Shown piece after piece: positions 2,964-17,333 of a DNA stretch of 64,000 nucleotides. A program made the position numbers and the translations under genes. The first letter of the stretch is position 1. Every line of letters starts with the position of its first letter. Source of the stretch: an uncultured Planctomycetota bacterium (lineage in GTDB: Bacteria > Planctomycetota > Planctomycetia > Isosphaerales > Isosphaeraceae); NCBI GenBank assembly GCA_963823665.1, contig CAWGMQ010000010.1:1152001-1216000 (forward strand). The letters run 5' to 3'. A model generated the notes under the pieces. The model worked only from the letters and a program-made list of their open reading frames with translations, had not been told where the DNA came from and did not search any database.

Positions 2964-3105
2964 TCCGCCTCGTTCTCGCCCTAGATTGGACACCGGGGAC
3001 GAGATACGACTAGCAAGGCGTCTGTCGAGTTGGAGATCCGGAGAGCGTGGTAATCAACCAGGCGCTCGTGCTAACGAAATAGCAACAGAATTCAAGCGGG
3101 ATCTC
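2964..3105. repeat. Dispersed repeat with AGCGCCTGGT-loop-ACCAGGCGCT hairpin core (copy 1)
   Basis: Aligns by eye with 13832..13975 over ~140 bp and with 7130..7213 over ~80 bp. Confidence 0.75.
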
Positions 3106-7129: not shown

Positions 7130-7213
7130 GCGCGACGACCCGGCGATCAGGGTAGCGCCTGGTAACGACCCAGGCGCTCTCGCAATTGAAAAACCCGCGG
7201 AATTAGAGCGGAT
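7130..7213. repeat. Dispersed hairpin repeat (copy 2)
   Basis: GTAGCGCCTGGTAACGACCCAGGCGCTCTCGCAATTGAAAA matches the 13910-13950 copy. Confidence 0.7.
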
Positions 7214-9075: not shown

Positions 9076-9229
9076 TTTCTTTTAGCAGAGACCAGTTGGA
9101 TCGAACCGCCGAGATCTCGGTTGCAGGCCGGTTTGGGTAGCGTCGGAGCTTGCCGGGGCTCCGGCTTGTAATCCGAGAGACGACTGCGAGGCTTCCTCCA
9201 GGTTGGATTGCGCCGCGCTTCGCGGGCTG

Positions 9230-9682: not shown

Positions 9683-9728
9683 TGGAGACGACCGGGATCG
9701 AACCGGCAACCTCCTGGTTGCAAACCAG
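9683..9728 (-). repeat. att-type copy of the tRNA-Ala 3' end (46 bp)
   Basis: Exact match to 17261..17306. Confidence 0.95.
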
Positions 9729-10092
9729 TCGCTTTACGGCGACGAAAAACGATGTAAAGTGTTTCTGCAATTCGATTCGTAGTCTGCACTCATGACGCAG
9801 GCGTTTTCCGGGAATTATCGGGATTTTGCGGGAATTATCAGGATTTGCGCCAATTCTCTGCCACGGCAGAGCTGTATACGTTGATGGACGTTAACCGATA
9901 AACGACTGGCTCCGACGGCGAAGCGCGAAATCACAGCGCCAACAAGAGTGCATCACGCCTTTTGCACGAGGCCGGGTCAGCTCAGCCCCCCGCCTTGACA
10001 CGCGATCTGAACCGATTGTCCCATCCGGTGTCTTAAGTGAAAATAGGTGCCCGTTACCGGGCCACTTAGGACGCGACCGATAGGGCGTTGAA

Positions 10093-10845
10093 ATGGGGCG
10101 GAAAAAACGGAATCGCCTGGACCCACGACTGGAAGCGTGTGAGTGCGTTTATTGCGGATCGCGCGACCGGCTAACGTTCGACCACGTTCCACCGCAGAAC
10201 CTGTTTTCAAGTCCGCGTCCGGGCAACTTGATTAAGGTGCCTTGCTGCCACTCTTGCAACAAAGGCTTCTCGAAGGACGATGAGTATTTCCGGCTGATGG
10301 TCGTGTTGCGCCATGACATCGGATCACACCCCGAATTCAAAAACTTATGGCCAACAGTATATAGGTCGCTTCTTCGACGTCGTGAGCACGGATTCACGAA
10401 CGGCCTGCTTCAAAGCATGGCGCGGGTGGATGTTCAGTCTCCCGGGGGTTTGTTTCTCGGCCAGCTTCCTACATATAGCGTCGATCTGGTCCGGCTCGAT
10501 CGCACGGCGGCGCGTATTACCAAAGGCTTATTCTACCATGAGTTTGGCTCCCGCCTCCCCGATGATTACTGCGCTGTGTCGTACAACAAATCCGGTTTCG
10601 GCGGGAATGTGGCTGGAGTAGAACTGGTCAATTCGATGTGCGCAAAACTCTTTGTTTCACCTCCCAAGACGATCGGAGCGAACGTCTTTTCTTACTGGTT
10701 CCAGCGTACTAGCGACAATCCGAATGCAAGTGTATGGCTCATGCTTTTTTTCGGGCGCGTTCCATTCTTTTGCCTTACGATCGAGAAAACTCTCGCTGCA
10801 AAACGAACTTATACAGTTGTGCAGGCACCGCAAATTGAAGTGTGA
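10093..10845 (+). CDS. HNH endonuclease-like protein
   Basis: CVYC...TFDHVPP...KVPCCHSCN...DDEYFR zinc-binding HNH pattern. Confidence 0.8.
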   Translation: MGRKKRNRLDPRLEACECVYCGSRDRLTFDHVPPQNLFSSPRPGNLIKVPCCHSCNKGFSKDDEYFRLMVVLRHDIGSHPEFKNLWPTVYRSLLRRREHGFTNGLLQSMARVDVQSPGGLFLGQLPTYSVDLVRLDRTAARITKGLFYHEFGSRLPDDYCAVSYNKSGFGGNVAGVELVNSMCAKLFVSPPKTIGANVFSYWFQRTSDNPNASVWLMLFFGRVPFFCLTIEKTLAAKRTYTVVQAPQIEV

Positions 10846-10880
10846 GAAGAAGGTTTCAAACGCCGACAGTGTCGGATGTC

Positions 10881-11068
10881 GGTGATAACCACTTTGGGTA
10901 CCACTTTAGCAACCATACGGGTACCACCTGCGTCACACTGGTGGCACATTCTCGTTGCCCCAAACGCCCTCAGCATAAAGTGAAGGGCGTTTGGGCCAAC
11001 GAGAATGTTCTCGGAGAGGGTGTTATCCGGTGGTCTCCCAAAGTGGTACCGATCCTAGCTGCTACCCA
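10881..11068. repeat. Structured non-coding element: 25-bp inverted repeat flanked by inverted arrays of GGTACCAC-like boxes
   Basis: 10946..10970 and 10984..11008 pair at 24/25 positions; four ACCA(C/T) boxes at ~12-bp period on the left, reverse copies on the right. Confidence 0.8.
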
Positions 11069-11265
11069 CAGTCGGATCGCTCACATCCTCGGCAGAACCA
11101 ATCGCGAGTGTATTGGTGGCTTCTAATAGCCTGAAAATGCAGATCGACAAACTGACCTCCGCCACCAGGATTGGTGGAGTACCGCCTGTAGGCAAACTTC
11201 GGCCAAACGTGGCTGTCTTCCAGTAGTTGTGGTTCTATGCAGAGATGACACAGGCCGTTGATCAT
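11062..11265 (-). pseudogene. Truncated HNH-like gene
   Basis: AGGA RBS, MINGLCHLC...EDSHVWPKF...WFCRGCE, then stops at the edge of the 10881-11068 element. Confidence 0.6.
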
Positions 11266-11354
11266 GGTTTTATTCCTATTACGATGCCGCTTCTGTCTAG
11301 CGATCATTCGTCGCATCTCCTAAGGAAACTGCGTCCGGGCCGTATACTATATGA

Positions 11355-12038
11355 GTGCCGCGCGGCTCAAAGGGAGCGACTGTTTCGCTCGACCAACTGG
11401 ATACGGAGACATTTCCATTGGCCGCTTTATCTCCAGATGCCGAACGAGTCGATAAGTTCATTCAAACCCGTGACCGCCTTTCTCTCGGGCAGTTGATGAT
11501 TCTTATCGCGGGCGCCGCGGTAGGGCTTGGCTTGCTGCCGCTGGGATCGCTCAGCCACCTTCCGGTCTACGGCCGAACCGGCATCTCCTGGCAAGGTCTG
11601 GTCATCGCTCTTTATGGCACGGTCTCGGGCGCTACGATGGCGGCCTTCGTTCTTCTGATCGTCAACCACCTGATCGCACGCCGCAAATGGGGGCCAGGGG
11701 CAGTTTCCCTGTTCACGTCGGGAATTACCGCATGGACGTTTTTACCAATGGTGGCTGTTTCTTGGATCCGCGCTTCGGGGGCGTTCGAGCCATTCAGCCT
11801 CTTTCTCCGGATCAACCTCGCGCACGACCCGGGCTCATATGCCCTCGAAGCATTCTATTATTTCTGGCCCGTGGCATGCCTCGCGCTTTTCATTGGGTGC
11901 TGCCTGAGCGGACAAGCCCCCAGGTGGTGGGCCTTGCGCGGCTGGTGGCCCGAATGGTTGGGAATGTGGGTGCTCGCCTTCTGGGCCATCCCGGCCATTC
12001 CGATCATCATCGGTTTTTTCAGAACATACTTTCGGTAG
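11355..12038 (+). CDS. Hypothetical multi-pass membrane protein
   Basis: About 5 hydrophobic helices; LSLGQLMILIAGAAVGL N-terminal motif. Confidence 0.7.
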   Translation: MPRGSKGATVSLDQLDTETFPLAALSPDAERVDKFIQTRDRLSLGQLMILIAGAAVGLGLLPLGSLSHLPVYGRTGISWQGLVIALYGTVSGATMAAFVLLIVNHLIARRKWGPGAVSLFTSGITAWTFLPMVAVSWIRASGAFEPFSLFLRINLAHDPGSYALEAFYYFWPVACLALFIGCCLSGQAPRWWALRGWWPEWLGMWVLAFWAIPAIPIIIGFFRTYFR

Positions 12039-12063
12039 AAGACGGGAAACAAAACGCCGCAAA

Positions 12064-12552
12064 CTAGCGCACGGCAGAGTTCATTTCACCCATTTGATTC
12101 CTCGCAGCCTCATCGGGCTCGACTTGCCCGCGCCACCCCAGCCACCGCGTCGGCTTGCCCTCGCCCGAGGGCGATTCGCAGGGCGTTTTCACGACTCGTC
12201 GGAGATGGTCTAGCAGCGGTTCACATTCGAGCCGGACCTTTCGGGTGCTTTTACAGGAGTTGCACTCTGGGTAACCCTTGCAATAGCGGGGGCTCCGCGC
12301 GTCGGCCACCTCGATATCGGCCAGGTAGGCCTTCAGGAAAGGTAGCTCCTCGTGCATCGCTACACCGAAGTAATCCCGGCAATAGCAGACCTCGACCCAC
12401 CGAATCAACCCCGATTTGTCCACCCGGCCGGTGCAAATCACGGTCCCAAGGTCGCCGTACGGAAAGCCGTCGCCAAAGCTCCCGTCTTCGAGCGCCCGCA
12501 GCAGATCAACCTTCGCCTCCGGTCGGATTTTGGCTGCCCGTACGTATCGCAT
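12064..12552 (-). CDS. Cys-rich conserved hypothetical protein
   Basis: WVEVCYC...EE and YC..YPECNSC motifs; protein-like composition. Confidence 0.65.
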   Translation of the reverse strand: MRYVRAAKIRPEAKVDLLRALEDGSFGDGFPYGDLGTVICTGRVDKSGLIRWVEVCYCRDYFGVAMHEELPFLKAYLADIEVADARSPRYCKGYPECNSCKSTRKVRLECEPLLDHLRRVVKTPCESPSGEGKPTRWLGWRGQVEPDEAARNQMGEMNSAVR

Positions 12553-12662
12553 GATTCGACTCCGCTGCAAAGATCGCTCATTGTAGAATTATAGTAAGCC
12601 GGCGAGCCCAGGACCAGGAGACGAGTCGGTACGGTGGGATAGCCCACTGGCTATCCAGCGTG

Positions 12663-12995
12663 GGACGGGCGTAGTACGCACTGCTGCACGAAGTGCTCGG
12701 GGCGCTAAGCCGCAGAGGCTTCGCGCTGCCTCGTCGCGGCAAGGTGCACACCTTCGGGCGGCTTAAATTCGTTTATGCGGCCGATCCCGACCTCAAGCGA
12801 ATGGGACTTACCCTCGAAGCCCTGGGCCGGCTGCGCAACGCGGCAGAATATCAGCTCGGTACGTCGGGCCCGTTCGTGTCGCCGAGAATTGCCATTTCTG
12901 CCTTGACCGACGCCGGATCGGCCGTCGCGCTACTCGACGCAATCGAGGCTGATCCGGTGCGGCGTGCGGGAGCTGCGCGGACGATACCGCCCTGA
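12663..12995 (+). pseudogene. HEPN-domain toxin-like remnant
   Basis: GRA*YALLHE (RAYYA with TAC>TAG), a central H and LRNAAEY (RxxADY-like); 5' end missing. Confidence 0.6.
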
Positions 12996-13081
12996 GTCCC
13001 GCTTGGAGACTACTTCGGCCTCGAGCGGCGCGCAGGTCGCGACCCTTCTTTGCCATCTCCGTGCCAGTTATCCTTGACGTC

Positions 13082-13633
13082 ATGAATGAGATCACCCGAA
13101 TTCATGGCACCATCGACGACGGCAAGCCGCGGCGCAGCTTCTGCCGCTCGTGTACGACGAGCTACACAAGCTCGCGGCTGGTCACATCCGCATGAGTCAC
13201 CCGGCCAAACGTTGAACGCCACGGCCCTGTTTTGCGAGGCCTATCTGCGGCTCGTTGGTCGCGCCGGAGGTCGTGTATTCGCCAATCGGGGTCACTTTTT
13301 TGCCGCTGCCGCCGAGGGATGCGACGGGTGCTCGTCGACAACAGTCGCAACCGTGCCCGCTCAAAACGGGGCGGCGGGAAGAGCCAGATCGATCTCGACA
13401 AGCTCACCGAGCCTGCTTCGGCTACGGACGACGATCTCCTCGCGCTGGATGACGCGATCGACCGCCTGGCCAGTAAGTACCCCGAAGCCGCCGAGCTTGT
13501 GAAATTGCGGTTCTTTGCCGGGATGACCCTGGACGAGGCGGCCGAATCGATGCGGCTCTCGCTCCGGACCGCCAACCGTCAATGGGCATTCGCACGGCCC
13601 TGGTGGCCGGCTGCCGCCCTCTCCCGCGAGTGA
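13082..13633 (+). pseudogene. Degraded TIGR02999-type ECF sigma factor
   Basis: LLPLVYDEL, QTLNATAL, HFFAAAAE and AELVKLRFFAG spread over several frames; no downstream kinase. Confidence 0.85.
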
Positions 13634-13831
13634 TCCGAATCTCCCGACATTGCGCGGGGCGGCTCCCGGGACACCATAACGATCTAACCGATATCGCGTG
13701 GCGGCAAGGCTGTGGCCTTGCTGGCTACATCGTAAAGCTTCGACTCGCAACCTATGTATGCTCGCGTGATAAAAATCGCCACTCGAGGCGACCAGAGGGC
13801 CGATGGTTCATCGAAGAGTTGCGCTCTTCGC

Positions 13832-13975
13832 CTCCCTCGTACTCGCCCCACAATTCAGACCGGGGCCGACGTACGACAAGCACGCGCCTCTGACGAGTTC
13901 GAGATCCGGAGAGCGCCTGGTAATGAACCAGGCGCTCTCGCAAATGAAAAGGCCGCAGAATCAAGAGAGGATCCT
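13832..13975. repeat. Dispersed hairpin repeat (copy 3)
   Basis: Perfect 13-bp stem GAGAGCGCCTGGT-AATGA-ACCAGGCGCTCTC. Confidence 0.75.
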
Positions 13976-14062
13976 ACGGTTCTTCCATCGTATGTTCAAC
14001 CAAAGACGGTACTTCACGCGCGATTTCAAGTGACGTAAGTCTTGGTTCAACTTCATGTTAAG

Positions 14063-14107
14063 TGGAGACGACCGGGATCGAACCGGCAACCTCCTGGTTG
14101 CAAACCA
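14063..14107 (-). repeat. att-type copy of the tRNA-Ala 3' end (45 bp)
   Basis: Exact match to 17261..17305. Confidence 0.95.
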
Positions 14108-14250
14108 AGAATTCTTGAAAATAGCAAGTCGTTTGAGAATAATGGGTTAAGTGCGATTCTGCGGACGCTGCTGGTTTCCAAAGTTTCTAAAGATTTACGG
14201 GATTTTTCGAGGATTTGCTAGGGTTTTGGTGCACGTGCACTGAAACTCAA

Positions 14251-15022
14251 TCATCCCGACTTCCGCTTGGCCAAGCCTCGCTCGATCGACTGATACTTGA
14301 TGTAGTTCTCGACCACGCCGATCTTCTTCACATCGTGCCCCTTGGCAATCACCTTACCGTTGCGGACCCAGAAGTGGGGTGCTTTCCCTTTGTCCAACAT
14401 TCCCGCAAACTTCATCAGCGGGAATCGAACGACAAAATGGGATCGCATGAGCGAGGAGTCGACCCGCTGAGCTTCGAAAACCAATCCATGTTGATCCCAT
14501 ATCCTAAGTAACTTCCGGCGGCGGGTCGCCAGCATCAGTTTGGCAAGGCATTTCTCAAGCTCGAATCCGGCGCGCATCAATGGGCGGCTGCTTCCGAGGG
14601 CATACGTGTAAGGCGCAAGGTGGCATGGGTTATCTGCGAACACATGGTGAACGAGCTGGCCATTCTTCCTTTCCACCATGCCCATGGAATGCAATCAGCT
14701 TGCTGATTTTCCGGCCGTTGGTGAATTCGAGATTGATGCGTAGCTTGCCCTTGAATCGCTGATTGGTCCAAACAGTGTGGCACATCCGGCAGAGCAGGTT
14801 GCATTTATCGAGTTCGTCGAATTGCTCAGTGGGAGACCACTCGGCGGATCATTTTCTCGTAGATTTTCGACTTTTGCACGGATCGATGTGATTGAATTCA
14901 AACGCACCCTTCGCCGTCAGGAATCGCCTCTCCATGGCTTTGATGCTGCGTTTGCAGATGGTGCAACGATTACCCATGTACTGAAGTCTGATTTGCCGGT
15001 CATCAACGTTCCGCCTGCCCAT
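14251..15022 (-). pseudogene. HNH endonuclease-like gene with several frameshifts
   Basis: Manual translation: MGRRNVDD...NRCTICKR...FEFNHIDP/KKS...DELDKCNLLCRMCH, continuing into ORF 14251..14694. Confidence 0.65.
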
Positions 15023-15196
15023 GACCCCGCATCTCCGTAGTCTCTGGATGTCAATTGAAAACGGTGGAAGTATTCTAACGTCCAGCTAGCTTGCTGGAAA
15101 CGGCAGTTGCAGAGGATTTGATGCGGGCCGGCTCGCATGCGCGCGTGAAAAATGTTACGATTGTTGATGGGTTTTGAAACGTTGATGGAGTGATGG

Positions 15197-15409
15197 ATGA
15201 TGGCTACGATTATGACTCCGTGTCCGACGTGCAACAAGCGAACTCCGCACCGTTCCGCTGGGGTGAATAGCAAGGTGAAAGATGCAGACGGACGCGTTTA
15301 CCAACAGATGGAATGCGCAGTCTGTAAGACCTCGACGAAGGTCTATTTTACCGAGGGCACAAACGAGTTCCAGGAAAACCTCGACGCTCCGGATGCCACA
15401 AAGGACTGA
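15197..15409 (+). CDS. Small zinc-ribbon protein
   Basis: CPTC...CAVC; GGAG RBS upstream. Confidence 0.65.
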   Translation: MMATIMTPCPTCNKRTPHRSAGVNSKVKDADGRVYQQMECAVCKTSTKVYFTEGTNEFQENLDAPDATKD

Positions 15410-15508
15410 ACGACGTAAGCACAATCGCCGTGCTTGCAGCGATCGTCGGCACCCTGGCATCGGTCGTCAGCGTCGCTGCCTCCCCATTTGATCAACAAGG
15501 AGCTCGTT

Positions 15509-16045
15509 ATGCCCGAGTGGTTTGGTGGTGCCGCGCTTTCCCCGGACATGCTGATCCCACCACATGAACAGTGGCAACTACAATGGGATCGTGTACGCCG
15601 CTGGTACCAGCGCGTCGTTGCAATCAAGGAAAACAGCCAACGAATTGAACCAACGCAATATGATGTGGACACGACTATTGCTTTTCTGCAAAACTGCTAC
15701 CATCTGAGAGATTGGCTGACGGCCTGCCGCCCTGACCTGACGAAAAAGGTCGATGCGCTGTTCGCCGGGCACTTTGAGATGAAGGGATGCCGGGATGTCT
15801 GCAACGGCTTTAAGCATAAGCAACTGAACAAGCCATCGCTTGATCCTGCATTTAATCTCTACCGAGAATACGATCACTTCGAGGCTGAGGCGAATCCGTC
15901 GTCAAGCCCTGTTTTTCTCCGAATCGCATTCACGGACGGCCAGGACGTGCGAAAGTTCGACCTTTTCGAATTCGCGGATGCCTGCTACGGCATCTGGGCG
16001 AGCTTTATCGCTCAAGAGTTGCAGGGCGCGTTGCGGACGGCTTGA
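15509..16045 (+). CDS. Hypothetical protein, HEPN-like
   Basis: AAGGAG RBS; AFLQNCYHLRDWL and CRDVCNGFKH (R..N..KH) motifs. Confidence 0.65.
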   Translation: MPEWFGGAALSPDMLIPPHEQWQLQWDRVRRWYQRVVAIKENSQRIEPTQYDVDTTIAFLQNCYHLRDWLTACRPDLTKKVDALFAGHFEMKGCRDVCNGFKHKQLNKPSLDPAFNLYREYDHFEAEANPSSSPVFLRIAFTDGQDVRKFDLFEFADACYGIWASFIAQELQGALRTA

Positions 16046-16130
16046 ACAATTCGTAGCGACTGACAACCCGGCCCTCTGTCGCTCATATCCGACAGGCGGC
16101 ATCTTGTTGTGCCGTAATGTAAAATGATGC

Positions 16131-16159
16131 TTGACCATTATTGCATTCTGCAATAGCCT
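16131..16159 (+). promoter_or_regulatory. Sigma70-like promoter with palindromic operator in the spacer
   Basis: TTGACC-17 bp-TAGCCT; perfect inverted repeat TATTGCA-TTC-TGCAATA at 16139..16155. Confidence 0.6.
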
Positions 16160-16201
16160 CCATCTGTACAGGCGATGATGCCTGGCTTATAGGAGGTTAC
16201 C

Positions 16202-16510
16202 ATGGACTTACTCACAAACGAGAAGCTTGAAGAATTGCTAGCGGTGTCGCCTGCCGAGCGTGTCACGCCAGAATATATGAAATCGCGTATCGCCGACACG
16301 ACGTTTACACGCATCGGCGAGACGATCACGTATTGCCGAATCGTGCTGGATAACGGCTTCGGCGTCAGCGGCGAAAGCGCCTGCGTGAACGCAGAGAACT
16401 ACAACCAGCAGATCGGCGAGAAGATCGCCTACGATAACGCCTTCCGCCAGCTCTGGCCACTGTTCGGCTTCTTGCTGGCCGAAAAGAACAAGCTCAAGGC
16501 GGCGGCATGA
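16202..16510 (+). CDS. Phage N4 Gp49/Sf6 gp66-family protein (Acb4-like nucleotide sponge candidate)
   Basis: RVTPE...TYCRIVLDNGFGVSGESACVNAENYNQQIGEKIAYDNAFRQLWPLFGFLL signature; AGGAGG RBS. Confidence 0.85.
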   Translation: MDLLTNEKLEELLAVSPAERVTPEYMKSRIADTTFTRIGETITYCRIVLDNGFGVSGESACVNAENYNQQIGEKIAYDNAFRQLWPLFGFLLAEKNKLKAAA

Positions 16511-16824
16511 AGCCGATTGTACAAGAAGCTGCTCAAGATCTGGCGGAAGGCTTGGCCGATGCGGGCGAGATCATCGAGGGCGGCTTCGCAGGGTTCCGCA
16601 TGATGGTGATACCCAAAGGTGCCCCTGCGATCCAGGTGCATGAGATGCGACTGGCCTTCTTCGCGGGGGCGCAGCATCTTTTCGCAAGCATCATGGCCGT
16701 GATGGATTCAGATAGGGAGCCGACGCCGAGGGACTTGCATCGCATGACCATGGTTCACGAGGAGTTGGAAGCGTTCCGCAAGGACTTCGAGCTAAACCAC
16801 CTGCGCACAGATGGGAGTGCATGA
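16507..16824 (+). CDS. Phage-type hypothetical protein
   Basis: ATGA overlap with the upstream gene; IQVHEMRLAFFAGAQHLF motif. Confidence 0.8.
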   Translation: MKPIVQEAAQDLAEGLADAGEIIEGGFAGFRMMVIPKGAPAIQVHEMRLAFFAGAQHLFASIMAVMDSDREPTPRDLHRMTMVHEELEAFRKDFELNHLRTDGSA

Positions 16825-17030
16825 CCCCCGCCCAACTCCGCGCCATCTGCGACTCGCTCGACGAGGAGCGCGGCACGGGCGGGCAGACGAAGCTCGCTCG
16901 ACTCCTCGGCTGGTATCACAGCACGGTCTGGCGGAAGCTGAACGGTAAATCGCCGATCACCCAGAGCGATGTGCTGGCGATCCGTAGCGCACTTTCCGAA
17001 GAATGCCAGGACGGATCAAGCTACGTATAA
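16821..17030 (+). CDS. Small Cro/XRE-like HTH protein
   Basis: MTPAQLRA...QTKLARLLGWYHSTVWRKLNGKSPI; ATGA overlap. Confidence 0.8.
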   Translation: MTPAQLRAICDSLDEERGTGGQTKLARLLGWYHSTVWRKLNGKSPITQSDVLAIRSALSEECQDGSSYV

Positions 17031-17260
17031 TCACGCGAAGATGTAGTAATGCGCCATAAGCCCGAAGCTCTAGGTCCCTTACGCTGTCTCATAATCGCTG
17101 GTCGATCTATCACGCGAGAATTTTGGTGCAGCCGGAAGTGCTTATGGAGCAGCGATTTACCTGCGATCCAGAGCGAGTTTCAGTGCAGTTTTGGTGCAGT
17201 CTTTTAATTCATTCGTCGGTGGTTATCGACCCAAACAACCGCTGCTAAACGACTTACGAA

Positions 17261-17333
17261 TGGAGACGACCGGGATCGAACCGGCAACCTCCTGGTTGCA
17301 AACCAGGCGCTCTCCCAATTGAGCTACGTCCCC
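17261..17333 (-). tRNA. tRNA-Ala(TGC), CCA not encoded
   Basis: GGGGACGTAGCTCAATTGGGAGAGCGCCTGGTTTGCAACCAGGAGGTTGCCGGTTCGATCCCGGTCGTCTCCA; cloverleaf, G3:U70, TTCGA loop. Confidence 0.98.

What the first reader, a model, noticed from the sequence alone, without database searches (positions are those of the whole stretch)
16131..17030. acr-aca-like anti-defence operon: Gp49/Acb4-like protein + unknown protein + HTH with its own operator
Seen: three translationally coupled small genes (ATGA overlaps, AGGAGG RBS) behind TTGACC-N17-TAGCCT. A perfect TATTGCA-N3-TGCAATA palindrome sits in the spacer and the last gene is a small HTH. Established: anti-CRISPR operons end in Aca HTH repressors that bind promoter inverted repeats. 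From memory, the anti-CBASS sponge Acb4 belongs to the N4 Gp49/Sf6 gp66 family; this needs confirming. Inference: an autoregulated anti-defence cassette, with the 105-aa middle gene a candidate new inhibitor and the HTH a candidate new Aca-like regulator.
Basis: partly seen in the sequence, partly recalled or inferred. Interest (0 to 1): 0.85.

Follow-up and report, generated by a model that had tools for sequence, protein, structure and literature searches.

The report
Swappable anti-defence cassette in planctomycetes
This three-gene unit is one copy of a reusable cassette in one family of soil bacteria: a fixed promoter and a small repressor gene flank interchangeable virus-derived genes, several of them known blockers of bacterial immunity, so the unknown passengers are good candidates for new ones.

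Summary
Gene 1 is an Acb4-family (PF13876) sponge homologue. Gene 2 belongs to a large, unnamed, mostly viral family (2,887 clusters) predicted to self-associate. Gene 3 is an XRE/Cro-type HTH found only in Isosphaeraceae among the genomes searched.

The promoter, palindrome and a 5'-UTR hairpin recur as a fixed leader in 30 of 121 genomes of the order. In 24 cassettes, 30 cargo genes from 20 families sit between leader and HTH. Named cargo families are Acb4, T7 gp5.9 (RecBCD inhibitor) and RyR-domain (anti-Thoeris type). The layout matches Aca1/Aca2 operons, but no Acr was recognised in the cargo.

The cassette lies at the tRNA end of small att-bounded islands without an integrase (21 delimited, 1.5-6.2 kb; here 14063-17260 at tRNA-Ala). 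Diverged HTH relatives end RNA-repair operons on ICE-like elements.

Best reading: an Aca-like autoregulated anti-defence cassette on ICE-derived, integrase-less islands. Repression, ligand binding and mobility are inferred, not shown. Only 3 of 20 cargo families are named anti-defence families, and many copies are decayed.

The parts
14063..14107 (-). attL-type copy of the tRNA-Ala 3' end; left boundary of the 3.2-kb island
   Evidence: 45 nt, 100% identical to the tRNA 3' end
14224..14247 (+). left arm-type repeat (TTTTGGTGCA with an inverted partner), matching the right-end repeats
   Evidence: role as an integrase arm site is inferred
15434..16045 (+). unannotated island ORF upstream of the cassette (probably starts at an internal Met)
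   Evidence: no significant Pfam, PHROG, NCBIfam or PADLOC hit
16131..16159 (+). sigma70-type promoter TTGACC-N17-TAGCCT
   Evidence: conserved across 54 leader copies; not listed by the consensus scan
16139..16155 (.). operator-like palindrome in the spacer, overlapping the -10
   Evidence: unique in window and genome; 7 of 7 pairs intact in 36 of 54 copies, 6 of 7 in 15
16157..16164 (+). CCTCCATC, an anti-Shine-Dalgarno stretch just upstream of the predicted +1
   Evidence: predicted to close the RBS only in read-through RNA; inference without a shuffle control
16166..16186 (+). 5'-UTR hairpin (bulged 7-bp stem, GAUGAU loop) directly after the predicted +1
   Evidence: 93% of cells paired, 5 two-sided changes, covariation reached by 1 of 500 shuffles
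16202..16510 (+). Acb4-family (PF13876) cyclic-dinucleotide sponge homologue, 102 aa
16507..16824 (+). 105-aa four-helix protein of a large unnamed, mostly viral family; candidate anti-defence protein
16821..17030 (+). 69-aa XRE/Cro-type HTH; Aca-like repressor candidate
17121..17198 (+). two TTTTGGTGCA arm-type repeats at the right end
17261..17333 (-). tRNA-Ala(TGC), integration target; right boundary
9683..9733 (-). second tRNA-Ala 3' copy, probably an older island in tandem

Best explanation
An autoregulated, Aca-type anti-defence expression cassette on a small integrase-less tRNA island (CIME-like) derived from Isosphaeraceae ICEs. SHOWN: a fixed promoter, palindrome and UTR hairpin; interchangeable cargo starting at a fixed ATG position and often ending on the HTH start; a terminal HTH; att and arm-type ends; no integrase. 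INFERRED: (1) on entering a cell that lacks the HTH, the promoter fires and cargo is made; here Acb4 soaks up CBASS cyclic dinucleotides and gene 2 blocks another defence as a small homo-oligomer; (2) the HTH, translated last, dimerises on the palindrome, blocks the -10 and perhaps binds the UTR hairpin as Aca1 and Aca2 do, ending the pulse; (3) the anti-SD upstream of +1 keeps read-through RNA untranslated; (4) the island moves only when an ICE or phage integrase with matching arm sites acts in trans or in tandem.
For: Leader in 30 of 121 genomes of the order. Of 29 loci fetched by the HTH, 21 have the leader upstream and 21 a convergent tRNA. Of 54 leader copies, 26 have the HTH within 1.3 kb and 6 within 5.1 kb. 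24 cassettes hold 30 cargo genes in 20 families: PF13876 in 5 places counting contig-cut L115, PF25708 gp5.9 at 48.2 bits (cut-off 24.5), PF02026 RyR at 37 bits (cut-off 27.4). 4 of 5 PF13876 genes in the order sit behind this leader. Diverged HTHs in L111, L124 and L158 have unrelated leaders but the same TGCA-N3-TGCA core in the spacer, with a symmetric outer change in L124/L158. The layout equals that described for aca1, aca2, aca10 and aca12 operons (PMC13551039). 21 islands of 1.5-6.2 kb have a tRNA 3' duplication, most with matching arm repeats; a six-frame integrase HMM found nothing inside them. G001 has a 120-kb tRNA-Leu element with integrase, two coupling-protein genes, paired arm repeats and HTH-ended operons. 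Gene 2 self-association model: score 0.59, best control 0.00; the mark was reached by 20 of 30 proteins solved as pairs and 1 of 23 solved as single chains; runs agree in at least 67% of contacts; pLDDT at least 69; four copies and my own alignment, unlike the calibration.
Against: Only 3 of 20 cargo families are named anti-defence families, and I ran no background-rate control. 22 of 54 leader copies have no HTH downstream (8 lie within 1.4 kb of a contig end, one is fused to a truncated HTH), and many are IS-broken. Several HTH copies have internal stops. L129 and L133 are empty (leader straight to HTH). SPO1 Acb4 guanine-reading K36 and E49, and Y57 and T70, are not conserved in gene 1 by my mapping onto. 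In 80 viral loci of gene 2 relatives neither Acb4 nor the HTH lies within 4 kb. The two Acb4+gene 2 cassettes are 82% identical in DNA, so one event. No SMODS CD-NTase in G000; 8 of 121 in the order. No G000 integrase locus carried the island's arm motif. 7 of 10 ICE-borne HTH operons showed no spacer palindrome. The palindrome shows no compensatory change within the leader family.
Confidence: 0.7

Rival explanations
1. Dead relics: the cassette worked on full-size ICEs or prophages, and the small islands are immobile deletion scars that are decaying; the regulatory reading is right but only historical.
For: Frequent IS insertions, frameshifts and stops; no helper with matching arms in G000; CIMEs are described as decay products (PMC5704250). 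Compatible with the best explanation on regulation; it differs on mobility.
Against: No integrase fragment in any delimited island; both ends with matched arms kept at six tRNA targets; no full-size element carrying this exact leader among the loci examined; the same cargo family occurs at different tRNAs (Acb4+gene 2 at Ala and Val; the 82-aa family at Leu and Val).
Confidence: 0.4
2. A general early-gene cassette: the HTH is a Cro/YdaS-like regulator of miscellaneous phage accessory genes, and anti-defence genes are only a subset of the cargo.
For: 17 of 20 cargo families have no named anti-defence match; cargo includes nucleotidyltransferase-like and HTH-like genes; HTH best hits are weak YdaS and controller-type proteins.
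Against: Every cargo family with a curated Pfam hit above cut-off, apart from one HTH_23 gene, is an anti-defence family. Relatives end RtcB, TROVE, RlaP and RNA-ligase operons, which fit repair of anticodon-nuclease damage (my background knowledge).
Confidence: 0.2
3. Host-domesticated module: the cell keeps the cassette to damp its own or co-resident defence systems, such as the ABC-3C, TIR, patatin and IrrE-type genes in the left part of the same islands.
For: Defence-type genes lie inside several islands.
Against: No pairing of cargo with a matching system was seen; the window's island has no recognised defence gene; patchy presence and decay argue against host selection.
Confidence: 0.08

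Closest known systems
acr-aca operons (Aca1, Aca2, Aca10, Aca12; PMC13551039)
   Same: Inverted repeat over the promoter, hairpin right after +1 ending about 16-20 nt before the start codon, variable small cargo, terminal HTH.
   Different: No Acr recognised in the cargo; the named cargo is anti-CBASS, anti-RecBCD and anti-Thoeris type; the HTH matched no Aca in sequence or fold searches; planctomycete hosts; integrase-less islands rather than phages.
Acb4 (SPO1; PF13876; PDB 9e4w)
   Same: Family membership well above cut-off; F48, N63 and I66 equivalents kept.
   Different: K36, E49, Y57 and T70 equivalents differ; not in a phage genome; ligand untested.
CIME, cis-mobilizable element (PMC5704250)
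   Same: attL and attR kept, integrase and transfer genes absent, tRNA 3' target, tandem accretion.
   Different: A recurring family with a fixed architecture at six tRNAs and an intact anti-defence cassette at the att end.
Plasmid establishment regulons (pLS20 EGeRS, PMC8708921, abstract only) and leading-region anti-defence genes (PMC11541004, listing only)
   Same: Conserved regulatory sequence in front of highly variable anti-defence genes; transient expression on entry.
   Different: One cassette per small island with its own repressor; no oriT identified.
iOriT islands (10.64898/2026.01.13.699239)
   Same: Minimal islands that carry defence and anti-defence genes and depend on ICE helpers.
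   Different: oriT not shown here, and these islands lack an integrase.

Membership tests
Acb4 / PF13876 | Pfam PF13876 above curated cut-off | tested here: met
   82.8 bits against 27; 9e4w E 6.6e-5
Acb4 / PF13876 | cGAMP pocket residues of SPO1 Acb4 | tested here: inconclusive
   Assuming a one-residue offset in the PDB chain: F48, N63, I66 identical; F62 to Y, V56 to C; K36, E49, Y57, T70 differ; K81 outside the alignment. All eight homologues tested in the paper bound 3'3'-cGAMP.
Acb4 / PF13876 | tetramer binding 3'3'-cGAMP | not testable with these tools
   needs EMSA or ITC; the tetramer model was not run
Aca regulators | small HTH ending a small-gene operon | tested here: met
Aca regulators | conserved inverted repeat over the operon promoter | tested here: met
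Aca regulators | conserved 5'-UTR hairpin (Aca1/Aca2 type) | tested here: met
   covariation modest and the sequences are related
Aca regulators | next to an acr gene | tested here: not met
   0 of 39 cargo-slot proteins matched an Acr family in Pfam or PHROGs; unnamed cargo could still be Acr
Aca regulators | homology to Aca1-14 | tested here: inconclusive
   no Aca in Pfam, PDB profile search or listed Foldseek rows
Aca regulators | binds operator and represses | not testable with these tools
   needs EMSA and a reporter
CIME | attL and attR retained | tested here: met
CIME | integrase lost | tested here: met
   six-frame HMM over 65 loci: one hit, in L100, which has no tRNA or att; the same HMM found an unrelated integrase in L191
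CIME | mobilised by a helper | not testable with these tools
   no junction in low-depth contigs
Sequestin / Lockin / Acb5 (for gene 2) | sequence membership | tested here: inconclusive
   five gene 2 motifs absent from 7 supplement files of PMC12265669, which may not list sequences; no Pfam hit

The most novel reading that the evidence does not exclude
A still-mobile family of minimal att-bounded 'anti-defence gene cassettes', moved by ICE integrases in trans, in which a fixed promoter, operator, UTR hairpin and repressor frame accepts phage ORFs precisely from start codon to stop codon. The cargo slot would then be a ready-made list of about 17 new counter-defence families, and gene 2 (2,887 clusters, no Pfam, no solved fold found) a new homo-oligomeric inhibitor, possibly a nucleotide-signal sponge.
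Probability: 0.3. Interest if true: 0.85.

Novelty: new variant of a known kind. Interest (0 to 1): 0.72.

Why it matters
Aca genes were the main handle for finding anti-CRISPRs. This HTH and leader give an equivalent handle for non-CRISPR counter-defence in Planctomycetes: the slot already returns Acb4, gp5.9 and RyR-domain genes, and leaves 17 unnamed or untested families, including one very large viral family. It also extends the DNA-plus-RNA Aca layout to a new regulator, and raises the question why 1.5-6 kb islands without an integrase keep anti-CBASS genes that should mainly help a helper phage or ICE.

Tried and rejected
Gene 2: no PHROG hit for 80 family members, no significant Pfam or NCBIfam hit, none in PDB sequences; Foldseek PDB none at E<=0.001; VIA best Z 5.8; one unnamed viral model, TM 0.85. 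These do not prove a new fold. 42 longer family members had no Pfam domain above cut-off, so no fusion to a known sponge.
L099 and L123 cargo looked Tad2-like from memory, but had no Pfam or PDB hit, so they are not counted. L134 looked MazG-like from memory; unconfirmed.
Phage origin of the frame: leader pattern 0 hits in IMG/VR; HTH 3 weak loci.
Rfam: nothing on the leader.
Autonomous version at L090 rejected: the nearby integrase sits in a different tRNA-Asp 5' copy.
The G001 integrase ORF sent was the wrong frame; its identification rests.
An oriT-like reading of a conserved left-end motif was considered from a recalled nic consensus and not pursued.
HTH DNA tree is too weakly supported to order events.
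No RNA holder listed; no excision joint in low-depth contigs.
Earlier scan notes: nothing.
Literature searches found no description of this element: 0 papers; 4, none on it by title and abstract start; 0. Subscription journals and bioRxiv supplements are not covered and could hold this HTH in Aca catalogues; I did not search the supplements of PMC13551039.

Full report
OBSERVATION. The palindrome is unique in the window (0 of 100 shuffles) and its core is at one place in the 16.46-Mb genome. The consensus scan did not list the promoter because TAGCCT matches 3 of 6. Contigs from other runs match pieces of the cassette with 0-1 differences. The host is inferred to be an Isosphaeraceae planctomycete from the titles of the closest loci.

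GENE 1. PF13876 at 82.8 bits; Acb4 9e4w at E 6.6e-5. The Acb4 preprint (10.1101/2024.12.30.630793; passages and section 8 read) equates Acb4 with PF13876 and reports that all eight homologues tested bound 3'3'-cGAMP. By my mapping, F48, N63 and I66 are kept, while K36, E49, Y57 and T70 are not, so the ligand is open.

GENE 2. 104 close homologues; 2,887 clusters at 50% identity by profile; nearest Atlas clusters 80-87% viral, with a low recognition value. No family or solved fold was found. The model has four helices, pLDDT 92. A four-copy model scored 0.59 against 0.00 for the best of 3 controls, packing through the conserved AFFAGAQHLF helix. The mark was reached by 20 of 30 known pairs and 1 of 23 single chains; contact agreement at least 67%, pLDDT at least 69; the job differs from the calibration. 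This supports self-association only. In 80 viral loci neither Acb4 nor the HTH is within 4 kb. Its link to anti-defence is the slot (window and L102, 82% identical DNA) and fusion in 6 of 150 representatives to a domain that follows Acb4 in L115 and L139.

GENE 3. XRE/Cro-type HTH with only weak database hits; 245 homologues. The profile hits 47 of 121 genomes of the order at E<=1e-4 and 0 of 400 other Planctomycetota sampled at E<=1e-6.

THE CASSETTE FAMILY. Of 29 genome loci fetched by the HTH, 21 carry the same leader upstream and 21 a convergent tRNA. The leader alone hits 30 of 121 genomes, 42 places, 12 metagenome contigs and 0 viral contigs. Pooled, there are 54 copies in 53 of 61 loci: 26 with the HTH within 1.3 kb, 6 within 5.1 kb, 22 without. 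Part of this pool was selected by the HTH; among the 31 leader-first loci the HTH follows in 10, with 8 cut by contig ends. The -10 keeps TAnnnT in 51 of 54, the -35 starts TTG in 49, and the palindrome is perfect in 36. A bulged hairpin right after the predicted +1 is 93% paired in 34 aligned copies (of 54), with 5 two-sided changes and a covariation score reached by 1 of 500 shuffles; relatedness inflates this. This is the layout described for aca1, aca2, aca10 and aca12 operons (PMC13551039; abstract, passages, first part of Results and section 23 read). Folding predicts the RBS mostly closed in read-through RNA (mean unpaired 0.08) and half open from +1 (0.54) in the 35 copies with a recognisable RBS and ATG; there is no control.

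CARGO. 24 cassettes with leader, HTH and cargo hold 30 hand-curated genes in 20 families; in 9 of 18 printed junctions the last stop overlaps the HTH start. Named families are Acb4 (window, L083, L102, L139, plus contig-cut L115), T7 gp5.9 RecBCD inhibitor (L085) and RyR domain (L095). Phage RyR-domain proteins degrade or sequester Thoeris signals (PMC13232231, passages); gp5.9 targets RecBCD (PMC9836394, listing only). 4 of 5 PF13876 genes in the order are behind this leader. No Acr was recognised among 39 proteins scanned. No background-rate control was run.

THE ISLANDS. Here tRNA-Ala 17261-17333 has its 3' end repeated at 14063 and 9683, giving a 3.2-kb island with matching TTTTGGTGCA repeats at both ends. 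21 such islands were delimited (1.5-6.2 kb, median 3.9; Ala, Val, Asp, Leu, Lys, Pro). Two have imperfect att copies, two lack a recognisable leader and two the HTH. Arm motifs differ between islands but mostly match across each island's two ends. A Pfam scan of 72 chosen ORFs (133 were listed) found transposases and defence-type genes but no integrase. A six-frame HMM built from 11 G000 integrase-like ORFs, run over 65 loci, hit only L100, which has no tRNA. This fits the CIME definition (PMC5704250, passages).

PARENTS. Diverged HTHs end operons with RtcB, TROVE, HD, RlaP, RNA ligase or HNH cargo, often beside large helicase or ParB genes. G001 has a 120-kb tRNA-Leu element with the integrase beside the tRNA, paired arm repeats at both ends and two coupling-protein genes; three HTH hits lie inside it. 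3 of 10 such operons have a promoter with the TGCA-N3-TGCA core in the spacer despite an unrelated leader; L124 and L158, which are one event, show a symmetric outer change and a different recognition helix. This is the best indirect link between HTH and palindrome.

MECHANISM. Inferred: a burst on entry, HTH-mediated shut-off at the palindrome (perhaps also at the hairpin), cargo neutralising host defence for the island or its helper, and movement by a helper integrase. An anti-CBASS sponge should mainly benefit a helper phage; SMODS CD-NTases occur in 8 of 121 genomes of the order but were not found in G000 (92% complete). Against current mobility: many copies are broken, no helper with matching arms was found and no excision joint was seen at low depth.

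COMPARISON AND VERDICT. Works like an acr-aca operon; not a member by the strict criterion of an adjacent acr. Gene 1 is a member of PF13876. The islands are CIME-like. Related ideas: pLS20 establishment regulons (PMC8708921, abstract), iOriT islands (10.64898/2026.01.13.699239, passages), sponge discovery by fusion (PMC12265669, passages and supplement search). Searches found no description of this element in the held library. New variant of a known kind; interest 0.72.

Noticed in passing
L124:6400-10001; L158:4870-8000: Operon with tRNA-like repeats (Y-RNA-like, recalled) ahead of TROVE and RtcB (plus HD in L124), ended by the HTH, behind a promoter with a variant palindrome; L124 lies beside a large helicase gene.
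   Followed up: partly
G001:C1:6701511-6821072 (L149, L150, L207, L210): 120-kb tRNA-Leu element with integrase, two coupling-protein genes, a 20-tRNA array followed by RtcB, HD and HTH, an RNA ligase and ParB.
   Followed up: partly
L094:2138-5390, L086:4616-5491, L134:6587-7894, L129:6257-7315, L083:4260-4772, L103:2342-2833: The left parts of the islands carry defence-type genes (ABC-3C, TIR-Pterin_4a fusion, patatin, IrrE/M78, DUF2321, DUF4238), so defence and anti-defence share 3-5 kb elements.
   Followed up: partly
L115:2-94, L139:7411-7980, P0229, P0230, P0243, P0251, P0265, P0282: An unnamed domain (phrog_35296) follows Acb4 in two cassettes and is fused to the gene 2 family in 6 of its 150 top representatives.
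   Followed up: partly
window 3042-3099, 7134-7211, 9086-9136, 13892-13969: Degenerate tRNA-Ala-like copies scattered among kinase/WD40 and ECF-like modules, possibly scars of older integrations.
   Followed up: no
window 10093-10845: HNH protein with weak PADLOC PDC-M01B hits inside the second tandem island (9683-14063).
   Followed up: partly
window 10897-11050: Nested inverted repeats (25-nt arms at 96%; 32-nt arms at 72%) downstream of the HNH gene.
   Followed up: no
window 14254-14694 (-) and 14852-15022 (-): Unannotated ORFs that look from memory like an IS200-type transposase remnant and an HNH fragment; no Pfam hit.
   Followed up: partly
L156:5665-8001: Seven small unannotated coupled genes ended by a diverged HTH, divergent from a large helicase-like gene: further candidate cargo.
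   Followed up: partly
L176:6244-7979: A 13-tRNA array beside an integrase in the window's own genome.
   Followed up: no
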